A stretch of 64,000 bases of DNA from Flaccisagitta enflata (lineage: Eukaryota), in contig OZ231126.1 in the NCBI GenBank assembly GCA_965153355.1, forward strand, positions 8,370,001 to 8,434,000. The letters run 5' to 3'. This document shows, piece after piece, positions 4,996-52,350 of the stretch (its first letter is position 1; the number at the start of each line of letters is the position of its first letter). A program made the position numbers and the translations under genes. A model generated the notes under the pieces. That model worked only from the letters and a program-made list of their open reading frames with translations, was not told where the DNA came from and searched no databases.

Positions 4996-6680
4996 CGCTT
5001 CATTTTGTGAACGATATCTGGGAATTCGTTAAGGAGAAAATCGCCAAATCGCTTACAGGATATGACCGGTGAAGAGCGATACCTCAGCGCCCCATGGAAA
5101 GAAGCCCGCCAAAGGGAACACGCGAAAAGGAAATAGCGGGGATCTGAAAACGCGACCGCGCGATAACACCAGATTTAAGAAGAATCAGATGATTGATTAT
5201 GGGATGCCAAACTGGTACCCGATAACCACGCCGCATAAACCACGAGAAGATATTAATTTTTATATCACTCTTCATAACGCCGGTTATATGGCAGTAGGTT
5301 TAGTTGTGATAAACAGAGCATAAGAAAGAAATCCGCTGAAACAAATTGTCTCTGTGATTGACTTACCATCCTTTATGTTTATTTTGAAAGAATCACCACC
5401 CGGTAACTGCAGACTTGTTTTCCTCCCATCTGTGCCTCTCTTTTTCAATTATACTGTGAGTCGATCCGTTACACAAAGAAAGACGTAGGATGTAGTTGTC
5501 CACCCTGTTGCATTAACTTGCCTTGCATACGGGCATGACTATTGCTGCCCTGATATGACTGTGACTTGTTTGTCCCTCGTCTTCGCAACGTCCCTAGCTG
5601 GTATTATTCGTATACTCAGACTTAGAATCCAGTGTTTGTTTAGAACGGCTTTGTACTTGATATTGCATCTTTATTGGATACTGCTTCTCATATTGCAATT
5701 AAAAGTTCAAAATCAAAATCAATCAAGTTTTCATTGTTTCACAATTTTTCCTTTATTTTGTTTTTCCTTTGACTTTTGCTACTCTCTTTTTTCTTTTCCC
5801 ATTTTTACCATCTTCTTCTTCTTCTTCTTCTTCTTCTTCTTCTTCTTCTTCTTCTTTTTCATCTATTCTTCTTTTTCTTCTCTTTCTTCATCTTCTTCTT
5901 CTTCTTCTACTTCTTCTTGTTCTTCTTCTTCTTTTTCACCTTCTTCTTTTTCACCTTCTTCTTCTTCGTTTCCATAACGTTTCTCATGGAGCCATTTTCT
6001 CGGTTTCGTTCTTGTGCGAGTCGATTAAGCGAGCATGATATCGAAATCTTTAATCAGATTTCCAAACCCATTTTGGCTTTTTTGTCCATCATCAACTCGG
6101 AATCAGAACTGGAGCTGGCAAATGGATGTTGTAGAAACGGAGATGGAAATGGAATTTGGGGATGGAAATGTTATGGGGAAAAGGAATTTGGGGATGGAAA
6201 TGGAATTCAAGAACAGGAACATTGAGGAGAAAATGATCAAGAAACGGGAATTTTGTGAGAAATATCAAGGAGGAGTAGGAATTTTTTGGTTGAAATGGAT
6301 TAGGTATCGGTATTTTGCGGTTAAAATGGATGAGGTACCGGAATTATGTGACTGAAATGGATAAGGAACAGGGATGGATTAGGAAAGAAAATTCTGTGGT
6401 TAAGTAAAATGGATAAGGCACTGGAATTTTGTAATCGAAATGGATTAGGCAAAGGAACTTTGTGGTTGAAATGGACGAGGAACAGGAATTTTGCAGGATA
6501 GACGGACAAGGAACACGGATTTTATGATTGAAATTGATAAGGTACAGGAATTTTGTGGTTAAAATGGAGATGGCGCATTAGGTACTGGAACAAAACAGAA
6601 ATTGACTTTCAAATTTGATTTGACTGTGACGTCAGCGTGTTTTTATGGTTAACGCGCAATGTTTATGCGCTGATGCCTTA

Positions 6681-9760: not shown

Positions 9761-9794
9761 ACAGAGAGAGAGAGAGAGAGGGAGAGAGAGAGAA

Positions 9795-9891
<97 letters not shown>

Positions 9892-9916
9892 GACAGACAG
9901 AGACAGACAGACAGAC

Positions 9917-9949
<33 letters not shown>

Positions 9950-10044
9950 GACAGACAGAGACAGACAGACAGACAGAGACAGACAGAGACAGACAGAGAG
10001 AGACAGAGACAGAGACAGACAGAGACAGAGACAGAGAGACAGAC

Positions 10045-10075
<31 letters not shown>

Positions 10076-12590
10076 CAGAGAGGGGGAGAGAGAGAAACAG
10101 AGAGGGGGAGAGAGAGAAACAGAGAGGGGGAGAGAGAGAAACAGAGAGGGGGAGAGAGAGAAACAGAGAGGGGGAGAGAGAGAAACAGAGAGGGGGAGAG
10201 AGAGAAACAGAGAGGGGGAGAGAGAGAAACAGAGAGGGGGAGAGAGAGAAACAGAGAGGGGGAGAGAGAGAAACAGAGAGGGGGAGAGAGAGAAACAGAG
10301 AGGGGGAGAGAGAGAAACAGAGAGGGGGAGAGAGAGAAACAGAGAGGGGGAGAGAGAGAAACAGAGAGGGGGAGAGAGAGAAACAGAGAGGGGGAGAGAG
10401 AGAAACAGAGAGGGGGAGAGAGAGAAACAGAGAGGGGGAGAGAGAGAAACAGAGAGGGGGAGAGAGAGAAACAGAGAGGGGGAGAGAGAGAAACAGAGAG
10501 GGGGAGAGAGAGAAACAGAGAGGGGGAGAGAGAGAAACGGAGAGGGGGAGAGAGAGAAACAGAGAGGGGGAGAGAGAGACACGGAGAGGGAGAGAGAGAA
10601 ACAGAGAGGGAGAGAGAGAAACAGAGAGGGAGAGAGAGAAACTGAGAGGGAGAGAGAGAAACAGAGAGGGAGAGAGAGAAACAGAGAGGGAGAGAGAGAA
10701 ACAGAGAGGGAGAGAGAGAAACAGAGAGGGGGAGAGAGAGAAACAGAGAGGGGGAGAGAGAGAAACAGAGAGGGAGAGAGAGAAACAGAGAGGGAGAGAG
10801 AGAAACAGAGAGGGAGAGAGAGAAACAGAGAGGGAGAGAGAGAAACAGAGAGGGAGAGAGAGAAACAGAGAGGGAGAGAGAGAAACAGAGAGGGAGAGAG
10901 AGAAACAGAGAGGGAGAGAGAGAAACAGAGTGTGAGAGAGAGAAACAGAGAGGGAGAGAGAGAAACAGAGTGAGAGAGAGAAACAGAGTGAGAGAGAGAA
11001 ACAGAGAGGGAGAGAGAGAAACAGAGAGGGAGAGAGAGAAACAGAGAGGGAGAGAGAGAAACAGAGAGGGTGAGAAACAGAGGGGGAGAGAAACAGAGGG
11101 AGAGAAACAGAGAGGGAGAGAAACAGAGAGGGAGAGAAACAGAGAGGGAGAGAAACAGAGAGGGAGGGAAACAGAGAGGGAGAGAAACAGAGAGGGAGAG
11201 AAACAGAGAGGGAGAGAAACAGAGAGGGAGAGAAACAGAGAGGGAGAGAAACAGAGAGGGAGAGAAACAGAGGGGGAGAGAAACAGAGAGGGAGAGAAAC
11301 AGAGAGGGAGAGAAACAGAGAGGGAGAGAAACAGAGAGGGAGAGAAACAGAGAGGGAGAGAAACAGAGAGGGAGAGAAACAGAGAGGGAGAGAAACAGAG
11401 AGGGAGAGAAACAGAGAGGGAGAGAAACAGAGAGGGAGAGAAACAGAGAGGGAGAGAAACAGAGAGGGAGAGAAACAGAGAGGGAGAGAAACAGAGAGGG
11501 AGAGAAACAGAGAGGGAGAGAAACAGAGAGGGAGAGAAACAGAGAGGGAGAGAAACAGAGAGGCAGAGAAACAGAGAGGCAGAGAAACAGAGAGGCAGTA
11601 GACTTCCCAGAAAAACTCAATTTATTGAAAAATACTCATCCCTGCAGCTTTTCTCAAAGAAAATACACCAGTTAATAAGAATTCAGCAGAAAATTTTTGA
11701 ATGCCATGGCGGAAGTAAGAAGCAGATATGATCAAAATTTCAAAATGAGAATTTTGTAGCTGATTGCAGATTCATCCTGCAAACTGTCAAAGAAAGTGCT
11801 CTTCTTTTTTTGATATTCCTTCGGGAAGATTGTCAAAATTGAGGTCAAAGATTTGAATAAGGCCAATTTTAAACAAAAGAACAATTTTGACCCGATCTAG
11901 ATATTTGACCTTTATTTTGACTATGTTCCTGAAGGAATATCAATAAAAGAAGATTACTTTCTTTTGACAGTTTTTTGCAAGGATTATGAATCTGCAATCA
12001 GATTTATAAAATTCTCATTTTGAAATTTTGACCTTATATCACCTTTGGCCTAATACTTCCGCCATAAAAAAATTTCAAAAAAAATTTTTGCTGCTGAATT
12101 CTTATTCAGTGGTCTTTATTCTCATTCTTATTCGCATTCTTATTCTATTTTTAACAAAGAGGAGAGAAACAGAGAGGCAGAGAAACAGAGAGGCAGAGAA
12201 ACAGAGAGGCAGAGAAACAGAGAGGCAGAGAAACAGAGAGGCAGAGAAACAGAGAGGGAGAGAAACAGAGAGGGAGAGAAACAGAGAGGGAGAGAAACAG
12301 AGGGGGAGAGAAACAGAGGGGGAGAGAAACAGAGGGGGAGAGAAACAGAGGGGGAGAGAAACAGAGGGGGAGAGAAACAGAGGGGGAGAGAAACAGAGGG
12401 GGAGAGAAACAGAGGGGGAGAGAAACAGAGGGGGAGAGAAACAGAGGGGGAGAGAAACAGAGGGGGAGAGAAACAGAGGGGGAGAGAAACAGAGGGGGAG
12501 AGAAACAGAGGGGGAGAGAAACAGAGGGGGAGAGAAACAGAGGGGGAGAGAAACAGAGGGGGAGAGAAACAGAGGGAGAGAAACAGAGTG
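9761..12590. repeat. GA-rich micro/minisatellite complex (AG, AGAC, AGAAACAGAGAGGG variants)
   Basis: Direct reading. Interrupted by a fold-back element at about 11668-12110. Confidence 0.95.
11668..12110. mobile_element. Fold-back MITE
   Basis: aataagaattcagcag...ctgctgaattcttatt with long inverted arms. Confidence 0.7.
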
Positions 12591-15117: not shown

Positions 15118-17364
15118 TACTACGCGAATAAAAAAAAAGCTTCAAAATTACAGTCCCCGACTGGGGACTGTAATTTTTGAAGCTTTCTCGTTGCGTAAAC
15201 GCAACTCGATGAAATACACAACAAGACAGCAATTTCAAGAAGAAAAAAAAAGAAAAAATTATTCAATATTGTTTTAATGATGACAAAACTTGAAAATGAT
15301 AACAATAGTGGATAATGATGATGACAACAATGAATGACAATGACAACAAAAATCTAAGAAAAAAAATATTCAAAAAAAGTTTTTTTTTAATTTTCAAAAA
15401 AAAAAAAAAAAAAAAATTTTCCAAAAAAAATTTTCAAAAAAAATCTTAAAAAATTTTCTTAAAAAATTTAGTAGTCGAAGATGATGACAGTAGTTGAAGA
15501 TGATGACAGTAGTTGAAGATGATGACAGTAGTTGAAGATGATGACAGTAGTTGAAGATGATGACAGTCGTTGAAGATGATGACAGTAGTTGAAGATGATG
15601 ACAGTCGTTGAAGATGATGACAGTCGTTGCAGATGATGACAGTCGTTGCAGATGATGACAGTCGTTGCAGATGATGACAGTCGTTGCAGATGATGACAGT
15701 CGTTGCAGATGATGACAGTCGTTGAAGATGATGACAGTCGTTGAAGATGATGACAGTCGTTGAAGATGATGACAGTCATGAAGATGATGACAGTCGTGAA
15801 GATGATGACAGTCGTTGAAGATGATGACAGTCGTTGAAGATGATGACAGTCGTTGAAGATGATGACAGTCGTTGAAGATGATGACAGTCGTTGAAGATGA
15901 TGACAGTCGTTGAAGATGATGACAGTCGTTGAAGATGATGACAGTCGTTGAAGATGATGACAGTCGTTGAAGATGATGACAGTCGTTGAAGATAATGACA
16001 GTCGTTGAAGATAATGACAGTCGTTGAAGATGATGACAGTCGTTGAAGATGATGACAGTAGTTGAAGGTGATGACAGTAGTTGAAGATGATGACAGTAGT
16101 TGAAGATGAATCTTGAAATCCATGATGGCAAACCTAAAGAAAAATCAGAATGTAATAAATGAGCAAGTAAAAGAATTCATCAACTCCAATCCTCTATATA
16201 AATCGCCTGAGTCCTAGTAACATTATATATATATATTATATATATATTGTTCCACTTTTCATTACTACATTAACAAGCTAATATCTTATAAACCAGACTT
16301 CAGATTTAATTCAAATTTTACAGGGGCAGTTCAATTAATATCCTTTACTTGTATACCAAATTGAAAAAGAATTCACATAATTTTGCTACCCTTTGCCTAT
16401 GTAAACTACCTAAGTCATAATAACATATTACTACATAAGCTAATATCTCATAAACCAGACTTCAGATTTAATTCGAATTTTGCTGGGGTTATTTACTTAC
16501 TACCCCCTACTTGTGTACCAAATCAGAAAAAAATTCACACACCTTTACTACCCTTTGCCTATGTAAATTGCCAAAGTCCTAGCAACATACTACTACATAA
16601 ATAAGCTAATATCTCATAAACCAGACTTCAGATTTAATTTGAATTTTGCAGGGGTTGTTTATTTAGTACCCTTTACTTGTATACCAAATTTTAAAAAAAT
16701 TCACATAGGTTTACCCTGAGGTCTACCCTCTACCTATGTAAATTGCCTAAGTCCAGTAAAATATTACTACAAAAATAATAGGCAAAGGGTAGTAAAAGTT
16801 AATGAAATTTTCTGAAAATTGGTACACAAGCTCCCATTGACATAAAAATAACACTGGTAAAATTTCATGAACTTTTGAAGTCTGGTTCAAAATATATGAG
16901 AAGGTTTTAAACACCAGACAAACAGACTACACGATCAGGTCCAACTCATAGTCACCGACGAAAACTTTTCGTCGGGGACAAAAAACCGCACTTTTAAATG
17001 ACATTCATCATATCAAATTTCAAAATAATTAAATAAAATCTTAAACCATTTTGAAGATCTCAAAGAGATCTTTCATTTGGCGCCAATCTGGTATTTCTAG
17101 CTTTATTCGTTTTAAAATGGCATAAAAAAGAGTGAAAACATTGCCATTTTCAGTTTTGCAATCCTTCGAAAAAAGAGTATTTTTGCAAAAAACAGGTTCA
17201 CTTTGGCAAGCTCTATCTCCTAAACGGTTTGGAGATACAGACCTGGGGTTGGTCTAGAATGAAGAAAAATTCAAAAATCTTTAAAATCAATTTAACAAAA
17301 AAATTTTTTGTGTCTATTCCACTTAGCTACAAAAGGGTGCGGCTTTTTTTTTATTCGCGTAGTA
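15118..17364. mobile_element. TA-flanked MITE (CTACGCGAAT termini) interrupted by a 1.85-kb HINE-like element
   Basis: tactacgcgaataaaaaa...ttttttattcgcgtagta. Related to the uninterrupted MITE at 23143-23556. Confidence 0.7.
15130..16986 (-). mobile_element. HINE/Helentron-like element with internal about 120-bp and 18-bp tandem repeats, copy 1
   Basis: Subterminal inverted repeat GTCCCCGAC, terminal hairpin, insertion in an A/T run. Inverted copy at 56166-57820. Confidence 0.8.
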
Positions 17365-19181
17365 GGGCAACGTTAAGCTTTATGAGCGTGCCATGGATAA
17401 ATTCCAACAACCTATTCAGGCTTTAAAGCAGTGATTCAAAACTAAGCCTTCAATAGATGCATATAGGGCGAATTGGAAGACAACAATACACATCACACAA
17501 AATTTTTGCCGGCTTGGAGAAAGTCGGTTTAAATGAATCATTTATCCGCGAGCATCATTTTACTGCAAAGAACCTGATCGGAATTTCTATTTTTTCGTTT
17601 TTTTATTCAAAACTTTATTCCTATCACGAGTTGCAAGGGAAGAACACTTGTAAGTTGAGGAGGAAAGCGTTAACTACAAACGGACACCGCGTGAACCAGG
17701 TGAGATGAATACTGTCCGATTCCAAGAGTTCAGCGAATGAAATTCAAAATGAATAAAATAGATATTAACTTAAAAAAGATATAATTCGATGGTTATTTTA
17801 GATAAAAATGACAAAGATGAAGGAGAAGAACGACGACGATGAGGGAGAACAACGACGGTGATGAAGGAGAACAACGCTGATGGAGAAGGAGAAGAACGAC
17901 GACGATGAAGGAGACGAACGATGGCAATGAAAGGAGAGAGTGACAACAATGAAGGAGAAGAAAAACGAAGATGAAGGAGAAGACCGGCGATGATGATTGG
18001 GAGTAAACGATAACGATGAACGGGGAATACATGACAACCATAAAAGAACGACAACAATGAAGGGGAAAAACAATGACAATGAAGGAAAAGAATAATGAAA
18101 ATGAAAGAGAGGAACAACGACGACGATGGGGAGGAGCACAGGAAAAGAACTGGGATGATGAAGTATAACAATGGAGAAAAACACAGCATGCAGCAACAAC
18201 AATGATCATCGACAAAAAAAAAAAGATCAAATGAAATTTTGTATTTGCCTGTTTTTGGTCAATTTTGTTTCTTTTAAATAACTGTTACATTTTTGTTGCA
18301 TACATTGATCTTAAAGTTAAGAAACTTGATTTTATGAATTTTATCTTAGCATATCCTTCATCATTGTTCGATCATTGCTCCAAACTGAGGCCGGGACTAG
18401 GTTGGTGAGGCTGGGATAGGTCGGTGAGGCCAGGTTTAGGAAAGTGAGGTTGGTGATGCCAAGATTAGGTTGGCGAGGCTAGAATGGGTCGCTGAGGTTT
18501 GGAATAGGTTGGTGAGACCGGTATTAGGTTGGTGAGGTCAAGACAGGTTGCTGGGGCCAGGGTTATTGGGTGCTTCACAAAACAAAAGTTGGGAATGTCC
18601 TTTCACCCAAGTTATATAATATAAAAGAAAAGTAAAATTATTAACTTATGCTATGTGAAGCACGCATGACCACAAAGCAATGCATGATGTGCGGCCGAGG
18701 CGTTCATATTTTGAAAATCTTCACAATTTTCTCCCATCAAGTTTCCCATACGCAAATTTTTTAAGTCGCGTGTACGCGACTCTACAACCCGCTTTGTCCG
18801 TCCGTCGGTCGGTCACACTATACTTTTTTTATGATTTTAAATCTTTGACCTCACTGCTCTTGCCCACATGGTTTGGTGACGTCACATATGGCCCCTGCCC
18901 ACCCGCACGCAACTTCGGTAACCGTGTATCCGGCCTTGTTTTATCACATCCTAACAATCAAAATGAAAACAAAACAAACAAAGCCGTATACACGGCAAGA
19001 CAGTCGCGGACGGTTGGGAAGGGGCCGTAATTCAAAAACTGCTCGTAATTCAAAAAAGTTTGGGACAGATAGATGGATGGACGGACGGACGGACCGACAC
19101 GGCAAGGTGTAGAGTTGCATGTCCGCGACTAAAAATGATACAGAAAATTAGGGAGACAGACTTTTTTAATTCACAGGTTTC

Positions 19182-20999: not shown

Positions 21000-21799
21000 A
21001 TAAACAGAGCCTCTTATTTAGTTGTTTGTTCGCAACTTAAAACGTTTTAATTTTTGATATGTGAGAAAAATGTTCTATGCAATTGCAGTGAAAGTAATTA
21101 CGTGATTGTTGTACAACTTACTCAGGATATGTCAAGGGATGGATGATCATTCATGCAAAATTTCAGACATTTTCATCGAACTACTTGCTTAAAATTTCAG
21201 ACATTTTCATCGAACTACTTGCTTAAAATTTTCAGGCAGGTAGGCTGGTTGGTGTGGGTTTACTTCTAAAAAATTCCTGAAACTTAATACAGTAATAGAC
21301 AAGGTCATGTGACATTACCGTACAAAAAATCAAGCCAATCCGTTGATTCGTCTCTGAGTTACGGCGTTTCAAAAATTAGATTAAAAAGTCACAATGATTT
21401 CAATTCATGATTCGATTTGTGCGTAGGAGCATTTGCTCGATTCATTAATAATTGCTCAGCATTCGTTTCTGCTCTAAATCAGAATGGCATCATGGCCTAT
21501 TGGTTAAGTTGCCGAACTTAAGACTTAGCAGTCGCGAGTTCGCGCCTGGAAGATTGATCCTTTTTAAATTCTGACATTTCAGGGAAGGTGGAAGAGAAGG
21601 GATGAGGGGAGACCACGTGACAGGAAGTGAGTGGCAGCGAGGGTGCGCAAACATCCAAGAGCAGTAAAGGAATTATAATTAAAAGCATATTTGTCTGGAA
21701 GAATTTCAATTAAATTCTGAGCCCGGCATTAGAAATTTACAATGTGGGCCGATTAAGTTGTAAATGGCCTATTAATACATGACCTGATGAATTGATCAC

Positions 21800-21933
21800 C
21801 TGAATTTTCTTGGTAAACTTGGCGGTTTTGACCTCGATAAAAGCTGCGTTGACTGCGCGCATGAACGACTTGTGATTGTTGAAAGTTACGCGTCCAGAGC
21901 CAATCGGGTATTTGTACTTGTCCGTGTCAACCC
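21800..21933 (-). CDS. CPEB1: CPEB1/Orb-like exon 10 (RRM2, [18 protein letters not shown]...KFTKKIQ)
   Basis: CPEB1-class RRM2 signature, AG/GT boundaries, phase 1/0. Confidence 0.95.
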
Positions 21934-22129
21934 CTAAGTACAAACAGACAACGGAAATGAATAAGGGAAGACGTCTAAGAGTAAGACAGTGCTAAGGGCC
22001 TCATACTGACTGTCAAATTGACAAGTGACCAACAGACCGTCCAAAACAATTAACACAATCAAATTAAACATGTGACCGACAAACCGACCAATTACAATTC
22101 AAACATGACCAAATTGACACGTGAGTGAC

Positions 22130-22289
22130 CTGCGTAGACGACTCCGCCGAAGAGATCGTTGAAGATGGTGGCCAGAGCTTCCGAGTTAAGCATTCCGTGC
22201 AAAGCCCCGACAAAAACTGTCTTCTGAGGATCCAAACGCTGAGAAGGACAACGGATGAAGTTGGAATCCGTCAAAACCCACGGAATCAC
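22130..22289 (-). CDS. CPEB1: CPEB1/Orb-like exon 9 ([11 protein letters not shown]...TVFVGALHG...GGVVYA)
   Basis: CPEB1 linker and RRM2 start, phase 0/1. Confidence 0.95.
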
Positions 22290-24150
22290 CTAACAAATCG
22301 AATTGAATAGAATATTAGAATGGAATTACCTGACAAATAGAATCGGATAGAATGGAATCACCTGACAAATGGAGCACAATAGCCTGTCAAATAGAATCAC
22401 CTGACAAACGGAAAGGAACAGAATGGAATCGCCTGACAAACAGAATGGAATAGAATGAAATCACCCGACACCCAACAAATGGAATGGATTTATACAGAAT
22501 AACCGGTCAAATGGAATGGAATAGAACAAAATCACCCGACAAATGGAATAGAATGAAATCACCCGACAAATGGAATAGAATAGAATGAAATCACCCGACA
22601 AATGGAATAGAGATCATCTGACAAATGGAATGGAATAGGTTCAAATGTAATTGCCAAATGGAATAGGTTAGAATGGAATTACCTGACAAATGGATAAAAA
22701 TCACCCGACACATGGAATCACCTGACAAATGAAATGGAATAGAATGGAATCACCTGATCACCTGAATCATCTGAAAAATGGAAAATGATAGAATGCAATC
22801 AGCTGAGAATGGAACAGGATAGGTCGCACTGAAAATTAGCATAGATCTTGCTACCCATGCCCAATGAATCAGGATTTCTATAAAATGGAATTAGCTGAAA
22901 TTTTTGTCTTGGGTGTTTTCAATAAAGTTGTGAATCGATACATTTTGCATGGATAAACTTTCACATGCCAGTTTTGACCTCTAAACTTCTCATTTTATGG
23001 TTGAAAAATAGGCGAAAAACATAGAAAAATTCAATCTCTTATTCTACCATAACCTACACAGAATTACAAATTTGCATAAAAAATCTAAACATCAACAAAA
23101 TAAGAACATGGCGCGATCCCTAAATCATGTACTGAGCGCGCTACCACGCGTATCAAAAAAAAGACGCACCCTTTTATTTATGAATAAAACAGATAAAAGA
23201 AATAATTTTAACTATTTTCAGTTAAGTCATTTTTAAAGATTTTCAAAAAATCTTTCATTCTAGACCAATCCCAGGTCTGTATCTCAAACGGTTTAGGAGC
23301 TAGAGCTCTGCAAAGAGAAGCACTATTTTGCTAAAATGCACATTTTACATAGGGATTGCGAAACTGAAACAGGCAACATTTTTACTCAAACTAATGCCAT
23401 TTCTAAACAAAAAAAAGATAGAAATACCAGATTGGCGCCAAATGAAAGTACTTTCAAAGAGCTTTAAAATGGTCTAAGATTTTAATTAGTTTCTCTGAAT
23501 CCTTATAGCTAAATGAGTCATTTAAAAGTGCGTCTTTTTTTTTTATACGCGTGGTATGTTCTTAGTTTGTTGATATTTTGATTTTCTATGCAAATTTGTA
23601 ATTCTGTCTAAGCATAAATGAGATGATTGTAAATGATTTACTCACTTTTTTGGCTCTTTATCATCGAATTTCTCTCAATCATTTTGCATTTATTTCATTT
23701 GGTGACTACAAAATGGAGATTCTTCATAACATGACATTTCATGGTTGTAAAAAAATAATAGATATATTGACTGAAGCAGAATCAGTGATGGAAATGTTAA
23801 CCATGTCCTCTGGGTAAGTTCTTCCGGTTTAATTTTCAGTGCGTCATAGAATGGAATAGGATAGAATGGAATTACCTGACAAAAGGAATATGACAGAATA
23901 GCATCACCTGACATATGGAATTGAATACAAAGGAATCACCTGACAAATAGAATAAGATAGAATGGCATCACCCGACAAATGGAATTGAATAGAATGGAGT
24001 TACCGGGAAAATGAATAGGATAGATTTGAGTAACCTGACAAATAAAATAGGATAGGATGGAATGGCCTGACAAATGGAATGGAATCACCTTTTGAATGAT
24101 ATGTTATCTGACGAATCATCTCAGAAACGGAATGGAGAAGAATGGAATAG
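22282..24150. repeat. About 27-32-bp minisatellite (GGAATCACCTGACAAATGGAATAGAAT) split by nested MITEs
   Basis: More than 20 units at 22282-22810 and 23845-24150. Confidence 0.9.
22827..23843. mobile_element. Fold-back element containing a nested TA-flanked MITE (23143-23556)
   Basis: Outer gcactgaaaatta...taattttcagtgc, inner taccacgcgtat...atacgcgtggta. Confidence 0.65.
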
Positions 24151-24350
24151 ATTCTTTCATCCACTTATAGTTAACCTTACAAGGGGCGAGTGTTGGCAAT
24201 AAATGTATATCTATATAAAGAAGAAGTGAAGTGAATTAATTATCAACAACAAATAGATCACTTTGTTCATGAAAAGAGCTGGCTACATATCAAAACATAT
24301 CACCAACGACGTGAGAATGAACAGCAATCCAAAGCTCCCGAGGTACATAC

Positions 24351-24497
24351 CTGGACTTCTTTGCATCGCATGCGTCTCGACGACATTTTGTAGTAATACT
24401 CGCCACCATTGGAGTAGTCGTGAGTGCACTGTTTCAGCAGCTCTTTCACTGACTTGTCGCAATCGAATAAAATGTAGACGTAACCTTTTGGTCCACC
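24351..24497 (-). CDS. CPEB1: CPEB1/Orb-like exon 8 ([11 protein letters not shown]...[13 protein letters not shown])
   Basis: RRM1 RNP1 and the CPEB1-type [13 protein letters not shown] motif, phase 0/0. Confidence 0.95.
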
Positions 24498-24813
24498 CTG
24501 CAATTTGATGGATGGATGGATGGATGAAAGTAAGGATGACTGGATGAAAGGACATACCCTTATGCAGAGGTAATAAGAATTCACCATCCTTTCTCTCTCA
24601 AACAGTAGCAGTAAACGAAACCCTATTCTTTTTAAACTGTCAATTGTCAAGATTAGCATACTGCTCTTTTGTTTAAGATGTTACGCACGATGTTCCTTTG
24701 TTAAAATGATAAAAACGACGAAAGACAAAAGATTAAATCATTATCGTCGAAACCGATAATCGACATACAACTCAAATCTTTGAGTATTTCCCCTCGAAAA
24801 AAAAACTTAAAAC

Positions 24814-25120
24814 CTTTGGCGGATATTTCGGGTGTTTGCCGTCTTTCCCCGGCCACTCGATCCTCAGATTGCCGTAACACTTGAACGTGTTAAGCAGCCC
24901 GATTTCGGTGATGTCCCAAGGCACTCCGCCGATGAAAACTTTGCAACTGTAGATGGGGTTCCGATATATCCTCGGAGGCAGGACGCCGCTCCAAGTGCAG
25001 GTGGCCTCGCAAATGGTGGCCGCGTTGCGATACAGACGCGCCGCTCTTTCGATGGAAAACGGATCGTCAGGGGAAGTCCCAAACAGCTCGTGAGGACTTG
25101 ACGGCCAGTCCAACAGTCCA
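24814..25120 (-). CDS. CPEB1: CPEB1/Orb-like exon 7 ([11 protein letters not shown]...[16 protein letters not shown]...[13 protein letters not shown])
   Basis: CPEB1-class pre-RRM and RRM1 motifs, phase 2/0. Confidence 0.95.
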
Positions 25121-25154
25121 CTGTTGGAACACAAACGGAAAGAGAAACGCGATA

Positions 25155-25720
25155 TGTAGATGTCTACAATTGGAAATACGGGGGAATTCATTACAGGAAG
25201 ATAAACATACTTAAAAGACTAATATTTGGAAAATAGACAAAGAAAAGGATGCTTTATTGCCCATGAGTGTTGGTTCCCATTGAATCACTTTTCTATGCAT
25301 TCACGAAAAAATATCAATATTTTGAGAAATGTTTCGAGGGAACATTGTTTAGATAAAATTTGCTACAACTTTCCCCACAATATGTTCTGTAAGAATATTG
25401 CTTGTTTAGCCGTTGCTAGGGAACGTAACTATGTGTGACAGCCCTGTTATGCTCCCTAGCAGCCGCCAAACAAGCGATATTTTTACAAAACATTGTGGGA
25501 AAGTTGTAGCAAATTTTATTTTGAAAAATGTTCCCTCATAAAATTTCTCAAAATATTGATACTTCTGCGTGAAAACATGGAAATGTGTTTCCGCGCCAAC
25601 CACCACCCATGGGCAATAAAACATCATTTCATTAGTTTATATTTCAAATATCAGTCTCTTAAGTTTATTTGTCTTCCTGTAATGAATTCTCCCGTATTTC
25701 CAAGTCTAGACGACATCTAC
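25155..25720. mobile_element. Fold-back MITE
   Basis: gtagatgtc...ggaaatacggg-gaattcattacaggaag paired with cttcctgtaatgaattc-cccgtatttcc...gacatctac. Confidence 0.75.
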
Positions 25721-50324: not shown

Positions 50325-50783
50325 ACAAGAGGAAGACAAAACAAGGCCGGATACACGGCAATCCAGTCGCGGACGGTTGGGCAGGAGCAGTAATGCGAAA
50401 ACCGCTCGGAATTCAAAAATGTGACGGACGGACGGACGGACCGACCGACCGACCTACCGACACGGCAAGGTGTAGAGTCGCGTGTCCGCTACTAAAAACA
50501 GAAAAGAGGAAACCAAAAATACAGAAAAGGGGGAAAGCAAAAATACAGAAAAGAGGGGAAACGTCCAAAACAAAGGCGCAGAAAAGAGGGAAAACAAAGG
50601 GAAAAAAAAGAGAAAACAAAGGCGCAAAAATAAGGAAAACAAAGGCGCAGAAAAGAGGGGAAACAAAGGTGAGCAAAAGAGGGAAAAAAGGCGCGCGAAA
50701 GAGGGAAAACAAAGGCGCAAAATTGAGGGAAAACAAAAGGGAAAACAAAAGAGTAGAGAGAGAGCAAATACAAAGAAGAGCAC

Positions 50784-51245
50784 CTTGGTTTTGGCTTTAG
50801 TTTCTTTTTTCGCAGGACTTGGCGAAGAAGATGATGACACTGAAGACGCATCCTCGTCCACCGTCGAGGGACATCCGGAATCCGGCGATGATGGCGCAGA
50901 CAACTCGTCGCCGCTTCCATCCCTTCCGGCCGTTAATGACGCCGTCGGTGACGGTGGCGATTCGCTTTCCGTCGACAACGTTGAAGTCGGGGACGTCGCG
51001 GCGACGGCGGCTAAAGCAGCTGCAGCAGCGGCAATGCGCGCGCGATCGCGCTTCCGTTGTTGCTTGTTGGTGGCGTCCCGGCGAAGTTTCTCGGCGCGAT
51101 CGAAATACGGGCGCTTCTCTTCCGACGTCAACACGAAGCGCCACTTCTGGTGGACGAGTTTGTCGATGTCTTCTTGAGTCGTCGCAGGATTCTCCTTCAA
51201 TGTCGCGATTTTTACTTCCTTCGCGAAGAGCAGGTACGCATTCAT
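50784..51245 (-). CDS. Divergent Sox-like HMG-box protein, HMG exon
   Basis: MNAYLLFAKE...ENP...I..L..KW...L..EEKRPYFDRAEKLR matches the HMG-box pattern of the Sox/TCF branch. Donor AAG|gtgct. Confidence 0.85.
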
Positions 51246-52350
51246 TTTCTAGCTTTGTAGACCAACGGCAATTGTTCTTTTTTTTTCTGATGCGCCGGAA
51301 TGACTCCTTTTTACTTAAGCTTCATGAAGTTTTTTTTTTTGTTATTTTTTATGTCATTGATAACTTGAAATAGATTGAGATATCAGCTCATTGCCGTTGG
51401 TTCTTTGGAGTACTCTTGAGAAGGGATAGGAGACGATCAAACAAAACAGTCACATGTAAGATATACACGATGATCATTGATAGAACTGGGCATCTTAAAC
51501 AAAGTTGTCTTTACAATAAGCAATCTAGAAATCCTTTTTGACTATTAGAATGAGGGACATGACGGGGCTTTTTTGGGTCATACACACCCTGTCGGTCCAC
51601 TGTCCAACCGTCTGTTCGATGCAACCTTCACTCAAAATTTAGGATCGGCTCTACATTGCCGTCTTTTTAGACCTATTTAAAGAAAAATAAAGATTGCCGA
51701 GTGGCTCGGTACAAAAAGAATGGAGCCTTAAAAAGAAGCCGATTTCCGAGTGACTTCCTACAAAATGACTTGCATTTTTAGTATCTAGAATTATTTTTGA
51801 GTGGGTTCTTGCTTGACTAACATCTAGCTACTCTTTTAAAACCAACCTACTTGTCAGATGTATGAGTATAGCAATCTGAAATATTGTAACCGCACTAACT
51901 CGTTAGGATTTACCAACACTATTTTAATGTTCTCCGCTAACCACCTCTCAGAGTCAGCTTTCTTTTTAAAATCCGAAAATATTTTTAAGTGTGAGTTGAA
52001 ATGGAGGTAATTCGATTTTTTAGCGTGATTTTTCTCGTTTAATGTTTGAGGGTTTGTTTACGTGTGATTCTCTCTAGGTCTGAGAGGTGTTTTCTGAGCT
52101 GACAGAGCCACGTCAACTAACATGTCAATAACTTCAGCACACATGAAGGCGACGGAGAACACGTTTTAGAAACGGAGAAAACGTTTTAGAAACCGCGAAG
52201 TCTCACTGCCTACACTTCGAAACAAGGCCGGATACACGGCAATCCAGTCGCGGACGGTTGGGCAGGAGCAGTGATACGCAAACCGATCGCAATTCAAAAA
52301 TATTTCGGACCGACGGACGGACCGACGGACCGACAAGGCAAGGTGTAGAG

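What the first reader, a model, noticed from the sequence alone, without database searches (positions are those of the whole stretch)
22282..24150. Intronic satellite built from CPEB's own 3' splice junction, giving an array of AG|GT sites
Seen: the true acceptor of exon 9 reads (minus strand) attctattcaattcgatttgttag|GTGATTCC. The upstream intron holds more than 20 degenerate tandem units of ATTCTATTCCATTTGTCAG GTGATTCC, that is a pyrimidine tract, an AG and the first 8 exon bases. Many units keep CAG|GTRATT and others have mutated to CGG. Established: an acceptor followed directly by a GT donor is the architecture of recursive-splicing ratchet points, and duplication of AGGT is a proposed route to intron gain. 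Inference: the array could act as decoy acceptors, a recursive-splicing ladder, or a source of frameshifted or extended RRM1-RRM2 linker isoforms.
Basis: partly seen in the sequence, partly recalled or inferred. Interest (0 to 1): 0.78.

Follow-up and report, generated by a model that had tools for sequence, protein, structure and literature searches.

The report
Intron repeat copied from splice junction
One intron of an animal CPEB1 gene has been inflated by about 26 decayed tandem copies of its own end-of-intron/start-of-exon junction, which appear to be silent look-alike splice sites, and similar junction-copy arrays turn up at the same exon in unrelated animals.

Summary
The 2,061-nt intron between the CPEB1 exons ending KEVQ (24351) and starting VIPW (22289) holds 26 degenerate units, mostly 32 nt, plus the true junction. 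Each unit is about 24 nt of pyrimidine-rich intron end followed by GTGATTCC, the first 8 exon bases. Eleven of 26 keep AG|GT and 8 have lost the AG.

The array is specific to this locus. Its DNA depth equals that of the flanks, and the window has no copies outside the intron. A 1,029-bp TA-flanked inverted-repeat transposon at 22820-23848, about 100 to 25,000 times deeper, splits it.

The functional reading is unsupported. One assembled transcript contig and a 98-100% identical transcript-derived protein use only acceptor 22289. Every AG-bearing decoy would give a premature stop. Only the terminal copy has a consensus branch point (CTAAT, A at 22315). The raw RNA reads were too few to exclude rare decoy or recursive use.

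New here: 8 of 22 other animal lineages carry independent junction-derived copies or arrays upstream of the orthologous exon, with up to 21 or more units of 27-82 nt. In one clade the next acceptor of the gene shows the same.

Best reading: a tolerated minisatellite born by tandem duplication across an AG|GT-type acceptor.

The parts
24351..24497 (-). Upstream CPEB1 exon (..[18 protein letters not shown]); donor CAG|gtatgt, last exon base 24351
   Evidence: tblastn of P0003; boundary context; covered by transcript contig X7 record 17 at 24349-24496
22290..24350 (-). The intron, 2,061 nt. About 190 nt of unique 5' sequence, then the junction-derived array split by a transposon
23849..24150 (-). 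Distal array block: 9 degenerate units, with 16-mer cores starting at 24127 to 23883
   Evidence: TRF period 32, 7.2 copies at 23850-24080; DNA depth equals the flanks
22820..23848 (.). Inserted 1,029-bp element with 19-nt terminal inverted repeats (22820-22838 / 23830-23848) flanked by TA. It carries long internal inverted repeats and a nested dispersed repeat at 23138-23539
   Evidence: the repeat finder I1-I4. Flanks and a 74.5% identical copy of 23138-23539 at 16980-17368. Summed contig depth 1.7e4 to 3.7e6 against about 150-240 in the flanks in X1, and 665 to 2.5e5 against 7-8 in X2
22290..22819 (-). Proximal array block: 17 units (cores starting at 22810 to 22337) plus the terminal unit that supplies the true acceptor. 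Includes a sub-block, 22472-22602, of four AG-to-GG units that share GTGATTT
   Evidence: TRF rows 22282-22814; depth 168-335 against flanks of 149-243 in X1
22282..22313 (-). Terminal unit, the true 3' splice junction: 24 intron nt (attctattcaattcgatttgttag) plus the first 8 exon nt, GTGATTCC
   Evidence: junction used in X7 record 17 and P0003
22314..22318 (-). CTAAT branch-point consensus, with the putative branch A at 22315, 26 nt upstream of the first exon base. There is no AG between it and the true acceptor. It is the only strict CTRAY in the proximal block apart from three units next to the transposon
   Evidence: The motif match is shown. Its use as the branch point is inferred
22130..22289 (-). 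CPEB1 exon beginning [11 protein letters not shown].. (160 nt); donor GCAG|gtcact
   Evidence: X7 record 17 covers 22129-22287

Best explanation
This is a locus-specific intronic minisatellite that arose from the intron's own 3' splice junction.

Origin (inferred). A segment of about 32 nt was duplicated in tandem. It covered the last 24 or so intron bases and the first 8 exon bases, GTGATTCC, which encode the conserved V-I-P. The short ATTCC repeats inside the unit and in the exon start could have provided the microhomology. Unequal exchange or slippage then amplified the segment to at least 26 units, about 830 nt. Sub-blocks were re-amplified, for example the AG-to-GG variant at 22472-22602. 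The copies have since decayed.

Later history. A TA-flanked inverted-repeat transposon, itself carrying a nested very-high-copy repeat, inserted into the array. Together the array and the transposon inflate the intron to 2,061 nt. The orthologous intron of a relative is about 129 nt.

Splicing. The upstream copies behave as silent pseudo-acceptors, and splicing joins 24351 to 22289.
- Shown: the terminal copy is the only one in the proximal block with a consensus branch point (CTAAT, A at 22315), and no AG lies between that site and the true acceptor.
- Inferred: this is why the last AG is chosen.

Why the duplication is tolerated (inferred). The exon starts with GT. Each copy is therefore AG|GTGATT, identical at positions -3 to +5 to a real donor of the same gene (CAG|GTGATC). 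This AG|GT-type junction seems especially tolerant of, or prone to, such duplication, because independent junction-derived arrays recur at the orthologous acceptor in other animals.
For: Repeat content and junction origin.
- 26 units plus the true junction, against 1.1 expected.
- The match runs 8 of 8 bases into the exon and then stops.
- VIPW/IIPW is conserved across the CPEB1 proteins and loci recovered.

Locus specificity.
- The array bins show 149-335 in X1 against flanks of 149-243.
- In X2, an independent marine metagenome, they show 6.5-13 against 7-8.
- The inserted element reaches 3.7e6 (all).
- The window has no copies outside the intron.
- A metagenome scan for the unit found 0 matches.

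Canonical splicing.
- X7 record 17 (1,676 nt) joins four exons, including 24349|22287, which is the same junction given 2 ambiguous letters. The array has zero depth in X7.
- P0003 reads KEVQVIPW.

Decoy properties.
- All 18 AG-bearing decoys give a stop within 61 codons.
- 12 of those 18 have no yTnAy motif at -45 to -11.
- CTAAT at -26 is present only at the true site within 22290-22730.

History.
- The array runs on across the transposon, with TA on both sides.
- X1 and X2 contigs cross both array/transposon borders (records 3, 7, 10 and 16).
- A relative's gene call reads through a 43-codon (129-nt) intron at the same KEVQ|VIPW position, with no unit-like translation.

In-window control. 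Only 1 of 6 CPEB1 acceptors and 0 of 6 donors have junction copies.

Recurrence elsewhere. 8 of 22 testable lineage groups have junction-spanning copies upstream of the orthologous exon, with different unit lengths.
Against: There is no direct measurement of splice-site use at depth.
- Contigs drop rare variants.
- The raw-read RNA run gave 17 reads, 15 of them under 90% alike and none on a junction. Low-level decoy or recursive use is therefore untested.

Eighteen of 26 units still keep AG, and 11 keep AG|GT, after enough time for a transposon insertion. That is more retention than a strongly deleterious decoy would be expected to show.

The same junction has given arrays in another animal clade, and the next acceptor of the gene does so too. 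This may mean a mechanistic or selective cause beyond neutral slippage.

The branch-point argument rests on a motif match only. The relative's intron was seen only as a translated read-through, not as DNA.
Confidence: 0.7

Rival explanations
1. The units are actually used by the spliceosome as zero-length recursive sites or decoys. Exon 8 is first joined to a unit's AG. The regenerated CAG|GTGATT donor is then re-spliced to a downstream acceptor, so use of the copies leaves no trace in mRNA. Such self-correction would explain why duplications across this AG|GT junction are tolerated and recur.
For: - 11 of 26 units keep the juxtaposed AG|GT.
- CAG|GTGATT equals, at -3 to +5, the authentic donor CAG|GTGATC of the next-but-one intron of the same gene.
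- Tandem acceptor-donor pairs define recursive sites, and exons with a donor at their 5' end exist (PMC8605326, introduction read).
- In the other animals, junction arrays sit at the two acceptors whose exons carry CAGGT within the first 8 nt. That is 8 of 22 and 5 of 10, against 2 of 19 other acceptors.
- L069 units carry the near-consensus donor CAG|GTGAGG.
Against: - No RNA evidence supports it. X7 has zero depth on the array, and X24 is uninformative.
- The intron is only 2.06 kb, and about 1 kb without the transposon.
- Units are 32 nt apart, too close for unit-to-next-unit splicing in most animals (general knowledge).
- AG and GT are not retained together. GT is kept in 8 of 8 AG-less units but only 11 of 18 AG-bearing ones (Fisher p = 0.06, opposite to the prediction).
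- Most units lack a branch-point motif.
- The lineages compared are related, so the acceptor counts are not independent.
Confidence: 0.15
2. The array is a maintained regulatory element. One form would be a tunable source of unproductive (NMD-targeted) splicing that sets CPEB1 dosage. Another would be a platform binding U2AF, U1 or other factors. A third would be a cluster of CAGGTG/CAGGTA boxes for DNA-binding proteins.
For: - The array is present with near-identical sequence in an independent wild sample. X2 has 4 other letters and 15 gap letters over 649 nt at 21790-22438.
- Every decoy would create a premature stop, the property of a poison site.
- Arrays recur at the same exon in another clade.
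Against: - The units are decayed, with about 73-85% matches by TRF.
- The array is interrupted by a transposon without apparent consequence.
- It is absent from a relative's 129-nt intron.
- Unit length and content differ completely between lineages.
- The protein-binding ideas are recalled motifs, not tested here.
Confidence: 0.07
3. The unit is a dispersed or genome-wide satellite that merely happens to abut the exon, and the 8-base match to the exon is coincidence.
For: - The window is extremely rich in tandem repeats, with 304 TRF rows.
- The unit contains ATTCC-like pentamers common in satellites.
- Another array of 31-nt period with a similar flavour lies at 6134-6568.
Against: - No depth excess over the flanks in two DNA runs at 85% likeness or more, while the adjacent transposon shows an excess of about 100 to 25,000 times.
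- 0 copies elsewhere in 64 kb for both halves of the unit.
- 0 matches in the metagenome scan.
- An in-phase 8 of 8 continuation into the exon has a chance of about 1.5e-5 (4^-8, own arithmetic).
- The 6.1-6.6 kb array has a different unit.
Confidence: 0.03

Closest known systems
Intron creation by tandem duplication of an AGGT-containing segment (Rogers model; PMC3265369 and PMC4974935, search listing and start of abstracts only)
   Same: A tandem duplication that carries an AG|GT. The extra copy is hidden from the mRNA because the splice signals are duplicated with it, so the mRNA is unchanged.
   Different: No new intron is made here. The donor (GTATGT at 24350) is not part of the repeat. 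The intron already exists in a relative (P0002) and in other lineages (the L038 and L039 groups). The duplication spans an existing acceptor, is iterated about 26 times, and expands an old intron.
Recursive splice sites / ratchet points and RS-exons (PMC8605326, introduction read)
   Same: A juxtaposed 3' acceptor and 5' donor (Y-tract, AG|GT). The real exon also begins with a donor-like GTGATT, as expressed RS-exons do.
   Different: - Ratchet points are single, ultraconserved sites in very long introns, with demonstrated intermediates.
- These are 26 decaying copies in a 2-kb intron.
- They are absent from a relative.
- No RNA intermediates were seen.
Ordinary intronic minisatellites (VNTRs)
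   Same: Head-to-tail units of 32 nt at a single locus, with internal sub-amplification and small indel differences between samples.
   Different: The unit is the splice junction itself, including exon bases. Every unit is therefore a candidate acceptor and donor directly upstream of a constitutive exon of a conserved gene.
Tandem (NAGNAG-type) acceptors and intron sliding
   Same: Closely spaced alternative AGs at one exon start. At this very site the intron lies 6 nt apart in different animals: |VQVIPW in 20 groups, against VQ|VIPW here and in 2 groups.
   Different: NAGNAG sites are 3 nt apart and give in-frame isoforms. Here the spacing is 32 nt and every alternative AG would be unproductive.

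Membership tests
Recursive splice site (ratchet point) | Juxtaposed polypyrimidine tract, AG and GT donor | tested here: met
   11 of 26 units are AG|GT. Pyrimidine content at -23 to -4 is 0.50-0.90. The unit's CAG|GTGATT equals the real donor CAG|GTGATC at -3 to +5.
Recursive splice site (ratchet point) | Lies in a very long intron, tens of kb (PMC8605326 introduction) | tested here: not met
   The intron is 2,061 nt, of which 1,029 nt is a transposon.
Recursive splice site (ratchet point) | Strong sequence conservation of the site between species | tested here: not met
   A relative's intron at the same position is about 129 nt with no unit-like translation (P0002). The units are decayed.
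Recursive splice site (ratchet point) | Splicing intermediates: junction reads into the site, a sawtooth profile, lariats | tested here: inconclusive
   The array has zero depth in X7 transcript contigs. The X24 raw reads were 17 in all, 15 under 90% alike, none on a junction. No nascent-RNA data were available.
Intron gain by AGGT tandem duplication | Tandem duplication of a segment containing AGGT | tested here: met
   The units carry CAG|GTGATTCC copied from the junction.
Intron gain by AGGT tandem duplication | The intron is new, bounded by the GT of one copy and the AG of the next, and absent in relatives | tested here: not met
   The donor GTATGT at 24350 lies in unique sequence. An intron sits at the same position in P0002 and in the L038 and L039 groups.
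Locus-specific minisatellite | Head-to-tail units of 10-100 bp confined to one locus | tested here: met
   TRF period 32. Depth equals the flanks in X1 and X2. No copies elsewhere in the window.
Locus-specific minisatellite | Length variation between individuals | tested here: inconclusive
   - A 9-nt insertion behind 22612 in both X1 and X2.
- 15 gap letters over 21790-22438 in X2.
- About twofold depth and contig breaks at 22439-22582.
- No whole-array read to count the units.
Genome-wide satellite | Many copies at other loci | tested here: not met
   No depth excess at 85% likeness or more. The metagenome scan found 0 matches. No copies in the rest of the window. No whole genome was available.

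The most novel reading that the evidence does not exclude
Splice-junction satellites may be a recurrent, mechanistically favoured class. At acceptors whose exon begins with, or carries within 8 nt, a donor-like AG|GT, tandem duplication of the junction would be self-correcting. A mis-chosen upstream copy can be re-spliced from its regenerated donor. Such junctions would then repeatedly grow arrays of functional acceptor-donor pairs.

The CPEB1 VIPW exon would be a cross-phylum hotspot. It would also be a natural system for asking how the spliceosome picks the last of more than 20 near-identical 3' splice sites.
Probability: 0.15. Interest if true: 0.8.

Novelty: new variant of a known kind. 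Interest (0 to 1): 0.5.

Why it matters
Splice-site choice. The array offers the spliceosome 18 AG-bearing copies of a constitutive acceptor, 11 of them also donor-like, immediately upstream of an essential RRM-coding exon. The assembled mRNA nevertheless shows only the last one. It is a natural experiment on 3' splice-site choice, testing branch-point placement against exon definition.

Intron growth. It also shows concretely how introns grow: an old, short intron was expanded about tenfold by duplicating its own end, followed by a transposon hit.

Recurrence. Independent arrays occur at the orthologous acceptor, and at the neighbouring acceptor, in another animal clade. This suggests that AG|GT-type junctions are preferred or tolerated sites for such duplications. 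That links intron expansion to the duplication model of intron gain and to the 6-nt shift of this intron between lineages.

If the copies are truly inert, this is an ordinary minisatellite with an unusual origin.

Tried and rejected
- Whole-genome search for the unit: no genome is held for this window.
- Metagenome scan with a degenerate 23-mer of the unit: 0 matches. This is weak, because that collection may not hold the species.
- Earlier notes by place: none for this genome. By words: none on junction-derived repeats.
- Rfam scan of 21500-25200 at E up to 1: no match.
- Raw RNA reads of organism A (X24): 17 reads laid, 15 under 90% alike, mostly on the transposon, none on a junction. They are uninformative about decoy use.
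- Extended or frameshifted linker isoforms: rejected. All 18 AG-bearing decoys meet a stop within 61 codons, and units of mostly 32 nt do not keep the reading frame.
- Selection keeping AG and GT paired: not supported, with the trend in the opposite direction and Fisher p = 0.06.
- Selective destruction of AG. The A of AG is among the least conserved core positions, at 18 of 26. Positions +3, +7 and +8 are similar (18, 18 and 17 of 26). Four of the six GG units form one re-amplified block, so no conclusion follows.
- Kinship with the 31-nt-period array at 6134-6568: rejected. The unit is different and there are no matches.
- Donor-side control in the other loci: not usable. In most of them the exon runs on past the window's donor position.
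- Literature. Three searches (one search failed on a syntax rule) listed no paper describing an intronic array made of a 3' splice junction. These are searches of an open-access subset only.
Full report
**What is there**

The gene on the minus strand is a CPEB1 orthologue. A transcript-derived protein from a public collection, P0003 (689 aa), is 98-100% identical. It maps onto exons at 26368-25835, 25119-24814, 24497-24351, 22289-22130, about 21930-21800, about 15060-14972, 14434 onward and 9727 onward. It carries the CPEB1 Pfam domains. The intron in question runs from 24350 to 22290, 2,061 nt. It separates ...RCKEVQ from [11 protein letters not shown]..., at the C-terminal edge of RRM1 (residues 328|329).

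**The repeat**

- Tandem Repeats Finder reports overlapping arrays over 22282-22814 and 23850-24080, with period 32 the clearest.
- The junction 16-mer TTTGTCAG|GTGATTCC with up to 2 mismatches occurs 13 times, all inside the intron, against 0.09 expected.
- With up to 5 mismatches there are 28 hits, against 1.1 in shuffled intron. One is the true junction and one (22902) lies inside the inserted element, leaving 26 units.
- The pyrimidine-rich half of the unit is likewise confined to the intron: 17 of 17 matches, 0.05 expected.
- Of the 26 units, 18 keep AG (11 AG|GT, 3 AG|GC, 3 AG|AT, 1 AG|CT) and 8 have lost it (6 GG, 2 CG).
- Four of the six GG units lie together at 22472-22602 and share GTGATTT. 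This points to re-amplification of one mutated unit rather than repeated loss of AG (inference).

**The array comes from the junction and is not a genome-wide satellite**

The unit consensus continues in phase for 8 of 8 bases into the exon (GTGATTCC) and then diverges. Those bases encode V-I-P of the VIPW/IIPW motif, which is conserved across the CPEB1 proteins and loci recovered. The exon copy is therefore the older one.

Two DNA runs were laid on the locus at 85% likeness or more. X1 is organism A and may be the source sample. X2 is an independent marine metagenome.
- Array bins: 149-335 in X1 and 6.5-13 in X2.
- Flanks: 149-243 in X1 and 7-8 in X2.
- The segment 22798-23917: 1.7e4 to 3.7e6 in X1 and 665 to 2.5e5 in X2.

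The tool warns that summed contig depth is not a copy number, but the contrast is stark. No whole genome was available. A metagenome scan for the unit found nothing.

**The insertion**

The segment 22820-23848 has 19-nt terminal inverted repeats flanked by TA on both sides. It also has long internal inverted repeats. Its core, 23138-23539, has a 74.5% identical copy at 16980-17368. The array continues on both sides of it. X1 and X2 contigs cross both borders. The array therefore predates the insertion, and both features are present in an independent sample. I read the element as a Tc1/mariner-type non-autonomous element carrying a nested repeat. That family assignment rests on the TA duplication and the inverted repeats only, and is recalled.

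**Which acceptor is used**

- One assembled metatranscriptome contig, X7 record 17 (1,676 nt, 0-3 other letters per exon piece), joins four exons in order. It includes 24349|22287, which is the 24351|22289 junction given two ambiguous letters. X7 has zero depth over both array blocks.
- P0003 reads KEVQVIPW.
- The raw-read polyA run of organism A (X24) placed only 17 reads. Fifteen were under 90% alike, most lay on the transposon, and none lay on a junction. Rare events are therefore untested.

**Consequences and signals of the decoys**

- Using any of the 18 AG-bearing copies would add 40 to 1,830 nt and meet a stop within 61 codons. No extended linker isoform is possible.
- The true acceptor has CTAAT with its A 26 nt upstream (22315), and no AG lies between.
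- Within the proximal block, strict CTRAY motifs otherwise occur only at the three units next to the transposon. One of those motifs belongs to the transposon's end.
- 12 of the 18 AG-bearing copies lack even yTnAy at -45 to -11.
- I infer that branch-point placement explains the choice of the last AG. This was not measured.
- The units' CAG|GTGATT matches a real donor of this gene, CAG|GTGATC after the exon ending at 21800. The copies are therefore plausible donors as well.
- AG and GT are not co-retained. GT is kept in 8 of 8 AG-less units and in 11 of 18 AG-bearing units (p = 0.06).

**Relatives**

A short gene call from a 612-nt public contig, P0002, is 96% identical over the exon. It reads straight through a 43-codon (129-nt) intron at the same KEVQ|VIPW position. 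That stretch starts with V (GTN), ends with Q (CAG), and has no unit-like translation. I could not see its DNA.

The window's 190 nt of unique 5' intron plus one terminal unit add up to about 230 nt. The array and the transposon therefore account for about 1.8 kb of the intron.

**A wider pattern**

A scan of metagenome contigs with the exon's peptide returned 80 loci.
- 15 lacked the motif I used and were not analysed.
- 26 were intron-less at this site (transcripts, or no intron).
- 39 were genomic and fell into 24 groups at 97% exon identity or more.
- 22 of those groups had enough upstream sequence to test.

In 20 groups the intron lies 6 nt upstream (|VQVIPW). In 2 groups (L038, L039) it lies where it does in the window.

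In 8 of the 22 groups the upstream intron contains copies of the junction that span the acceptor.
- L057 has at least 21 units of 29-30 nt, reaching the contig end. Each unit is the acceptor plus about 20 exon bases.
- L069 has at least 14 units of 27 or 38 nt.
- L055 has 4-5 units of 35 nt.
- L065 has three units of 81-82 nt.
- L033, L052, L053 and L066 have one or two copies.

All eight belong to one clade, whose exon begins VIPWVLSDSNYV. The unit lengths and intron parts differ between them. In that clade the next acceptor of the gene (exon starting GGTCAGGTCG) shows the same in 5 of 10 loci tested. Examples are five 36-nt units in L046 and three 70-nt units in L053. Other acceptors do so in 2 of 19. 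In the window itself, only this acceptor of 6, and none of 6 donors, has junction copies.

These lineages are related and rich in minisatellites, so the counts are not independent. Still, the window's array differs from theirs in intron position, unit and organism, and is clearly a separate origin.

**Comparison with known systems**

The architecture is that of recursive splice sites, tandem acceptor-donor pairs (PMC8605326, introduction read). However, the long intron, the conservation and the intermediates that define ratchet points are not met or not shown.

The mutational event is the one invoked for intron gain by AGGT duplication (PMC3265369 and PMC4974935, listing and abstract starts only). 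Here, though, it expands an existing intron rather than creating one.

Three literature searches listed no description of an intronic array made from a 3' splice junction. I did not test it.

**Verdict**

The origin of the array from the junction is supported. A splicing function is unsupported, though rare use is not excluded.

My best reading, at 0.7, is a tolerated, locus-specific minisatellite born by tandem duplication across an AG|GT-type acceptor and later split by a transposon. The recurrence at the same exon in other animals is the most interesting part and deserves a genome-wide test.

Noticed in passing
window 22820-23848 (core 23138-23539; second copy 16980-17368): A TA-flanked element with 19-nt terminal inverted repeats, 55-nt and 28-nt internal inverted repeats, and a nested core. 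Summed contig depth on the core is up to about 25,000 times the flanks in organism A DNA, which makes it one of the most abundant repeats of this genome.
   Followed up: partly
window 24351|22289; loci L005-L075: The intron at this site lies 6 nt apart in different animals. It is |VQVIPW in 20 groups, against VQ|VIPW in the window, P0002 and the L038 and L039 groups. The hexamer GTNCAG begins with GT and ends with AG, so both positions are AG|GT sites. This may be a case of intron sliding or re-gain.
   Followed up: partly
L046:1720-1899, L053:2300-2538, L056:2640-3007, L061:3765-3885: In one animal clade a second CPEB1 acceptor (exon starting GGTCAGGTCG, ..GSGRVTF) is also embedded in tandem arrays. 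Each unit is made of the acceptor plus 17-34 exon bases, with unit lengths of 36, 70, about 183 and 62 nt.
   Followed up: partly
L069:1631-2231: The units here changed the exon-derived CAG|GTGATT to CAG|GTGAGG, a near-consensus donor. Each unit could then act as a 6-nt GTACAG (VQ) micro-exon. The 27-nt units are in frame and free of stops (VQVRLVWMQ).
   Followed up: no
L052:589-951: The sequence between two junction copies looks tRNA-derived by eye (SINE-like, ...GTAGCGCGTCAGACT...GGTTCGATTCC...). It was not tested with a tRNA finder.
   Followed up: no
window 22612; 21790-22438; 23760-24804: There are indel differences between the window and public DNA contigs inside or near the array. A 9-nt insertion lies behind 22612 in both X1 and X2. 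X2 has 15 gap letters and X1 has 17. Contigs break, and depth is about twofold, at 22439-22582, the block of near-identical GG units.
   Followed up: partly
window 1-64000: The tandem-repeat load is extreme: 304 TRF rows at score 30 or more, including kilobase (AG)n-like arrays at 9763-11595 and 12161-12588, and a 19-nt array at 15477-16109 inside the long CPEB1 intron. Ten Ns lie at 2718-2727.
   Followed up: no
window 6134-6568: Arrays of 31-nt and 19-nt period with an ATTCC/CCATTT flavour. They resemble the intron unit superficially but have a different unit (AACCACAAAATTCCTGTACCTTATCCATTTC-like).
   Followed up: yes
window 22130|22129 and 22289: The VIPW exon has the layout of an expressed RS-exon. 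It begins with a donor-like GTGATT, while its own donor (GCAG|gtcact) looks weaker by consensus. Re-splicing from the exon-8/exon-9 junction would skip a 160-nt exon and shift the frame. The assembled transcript includes the exon.
   Followed up: no
window 50457-51248 (minus strand): A long open frame that looks by eye like an HMG-box protein (..KMNAYLLFAKEVK..KWRFVLTSEEKRPYFDRAEKLRR..), upstream of CPEB1 on the same strand. Not tested.
   Followed up: no
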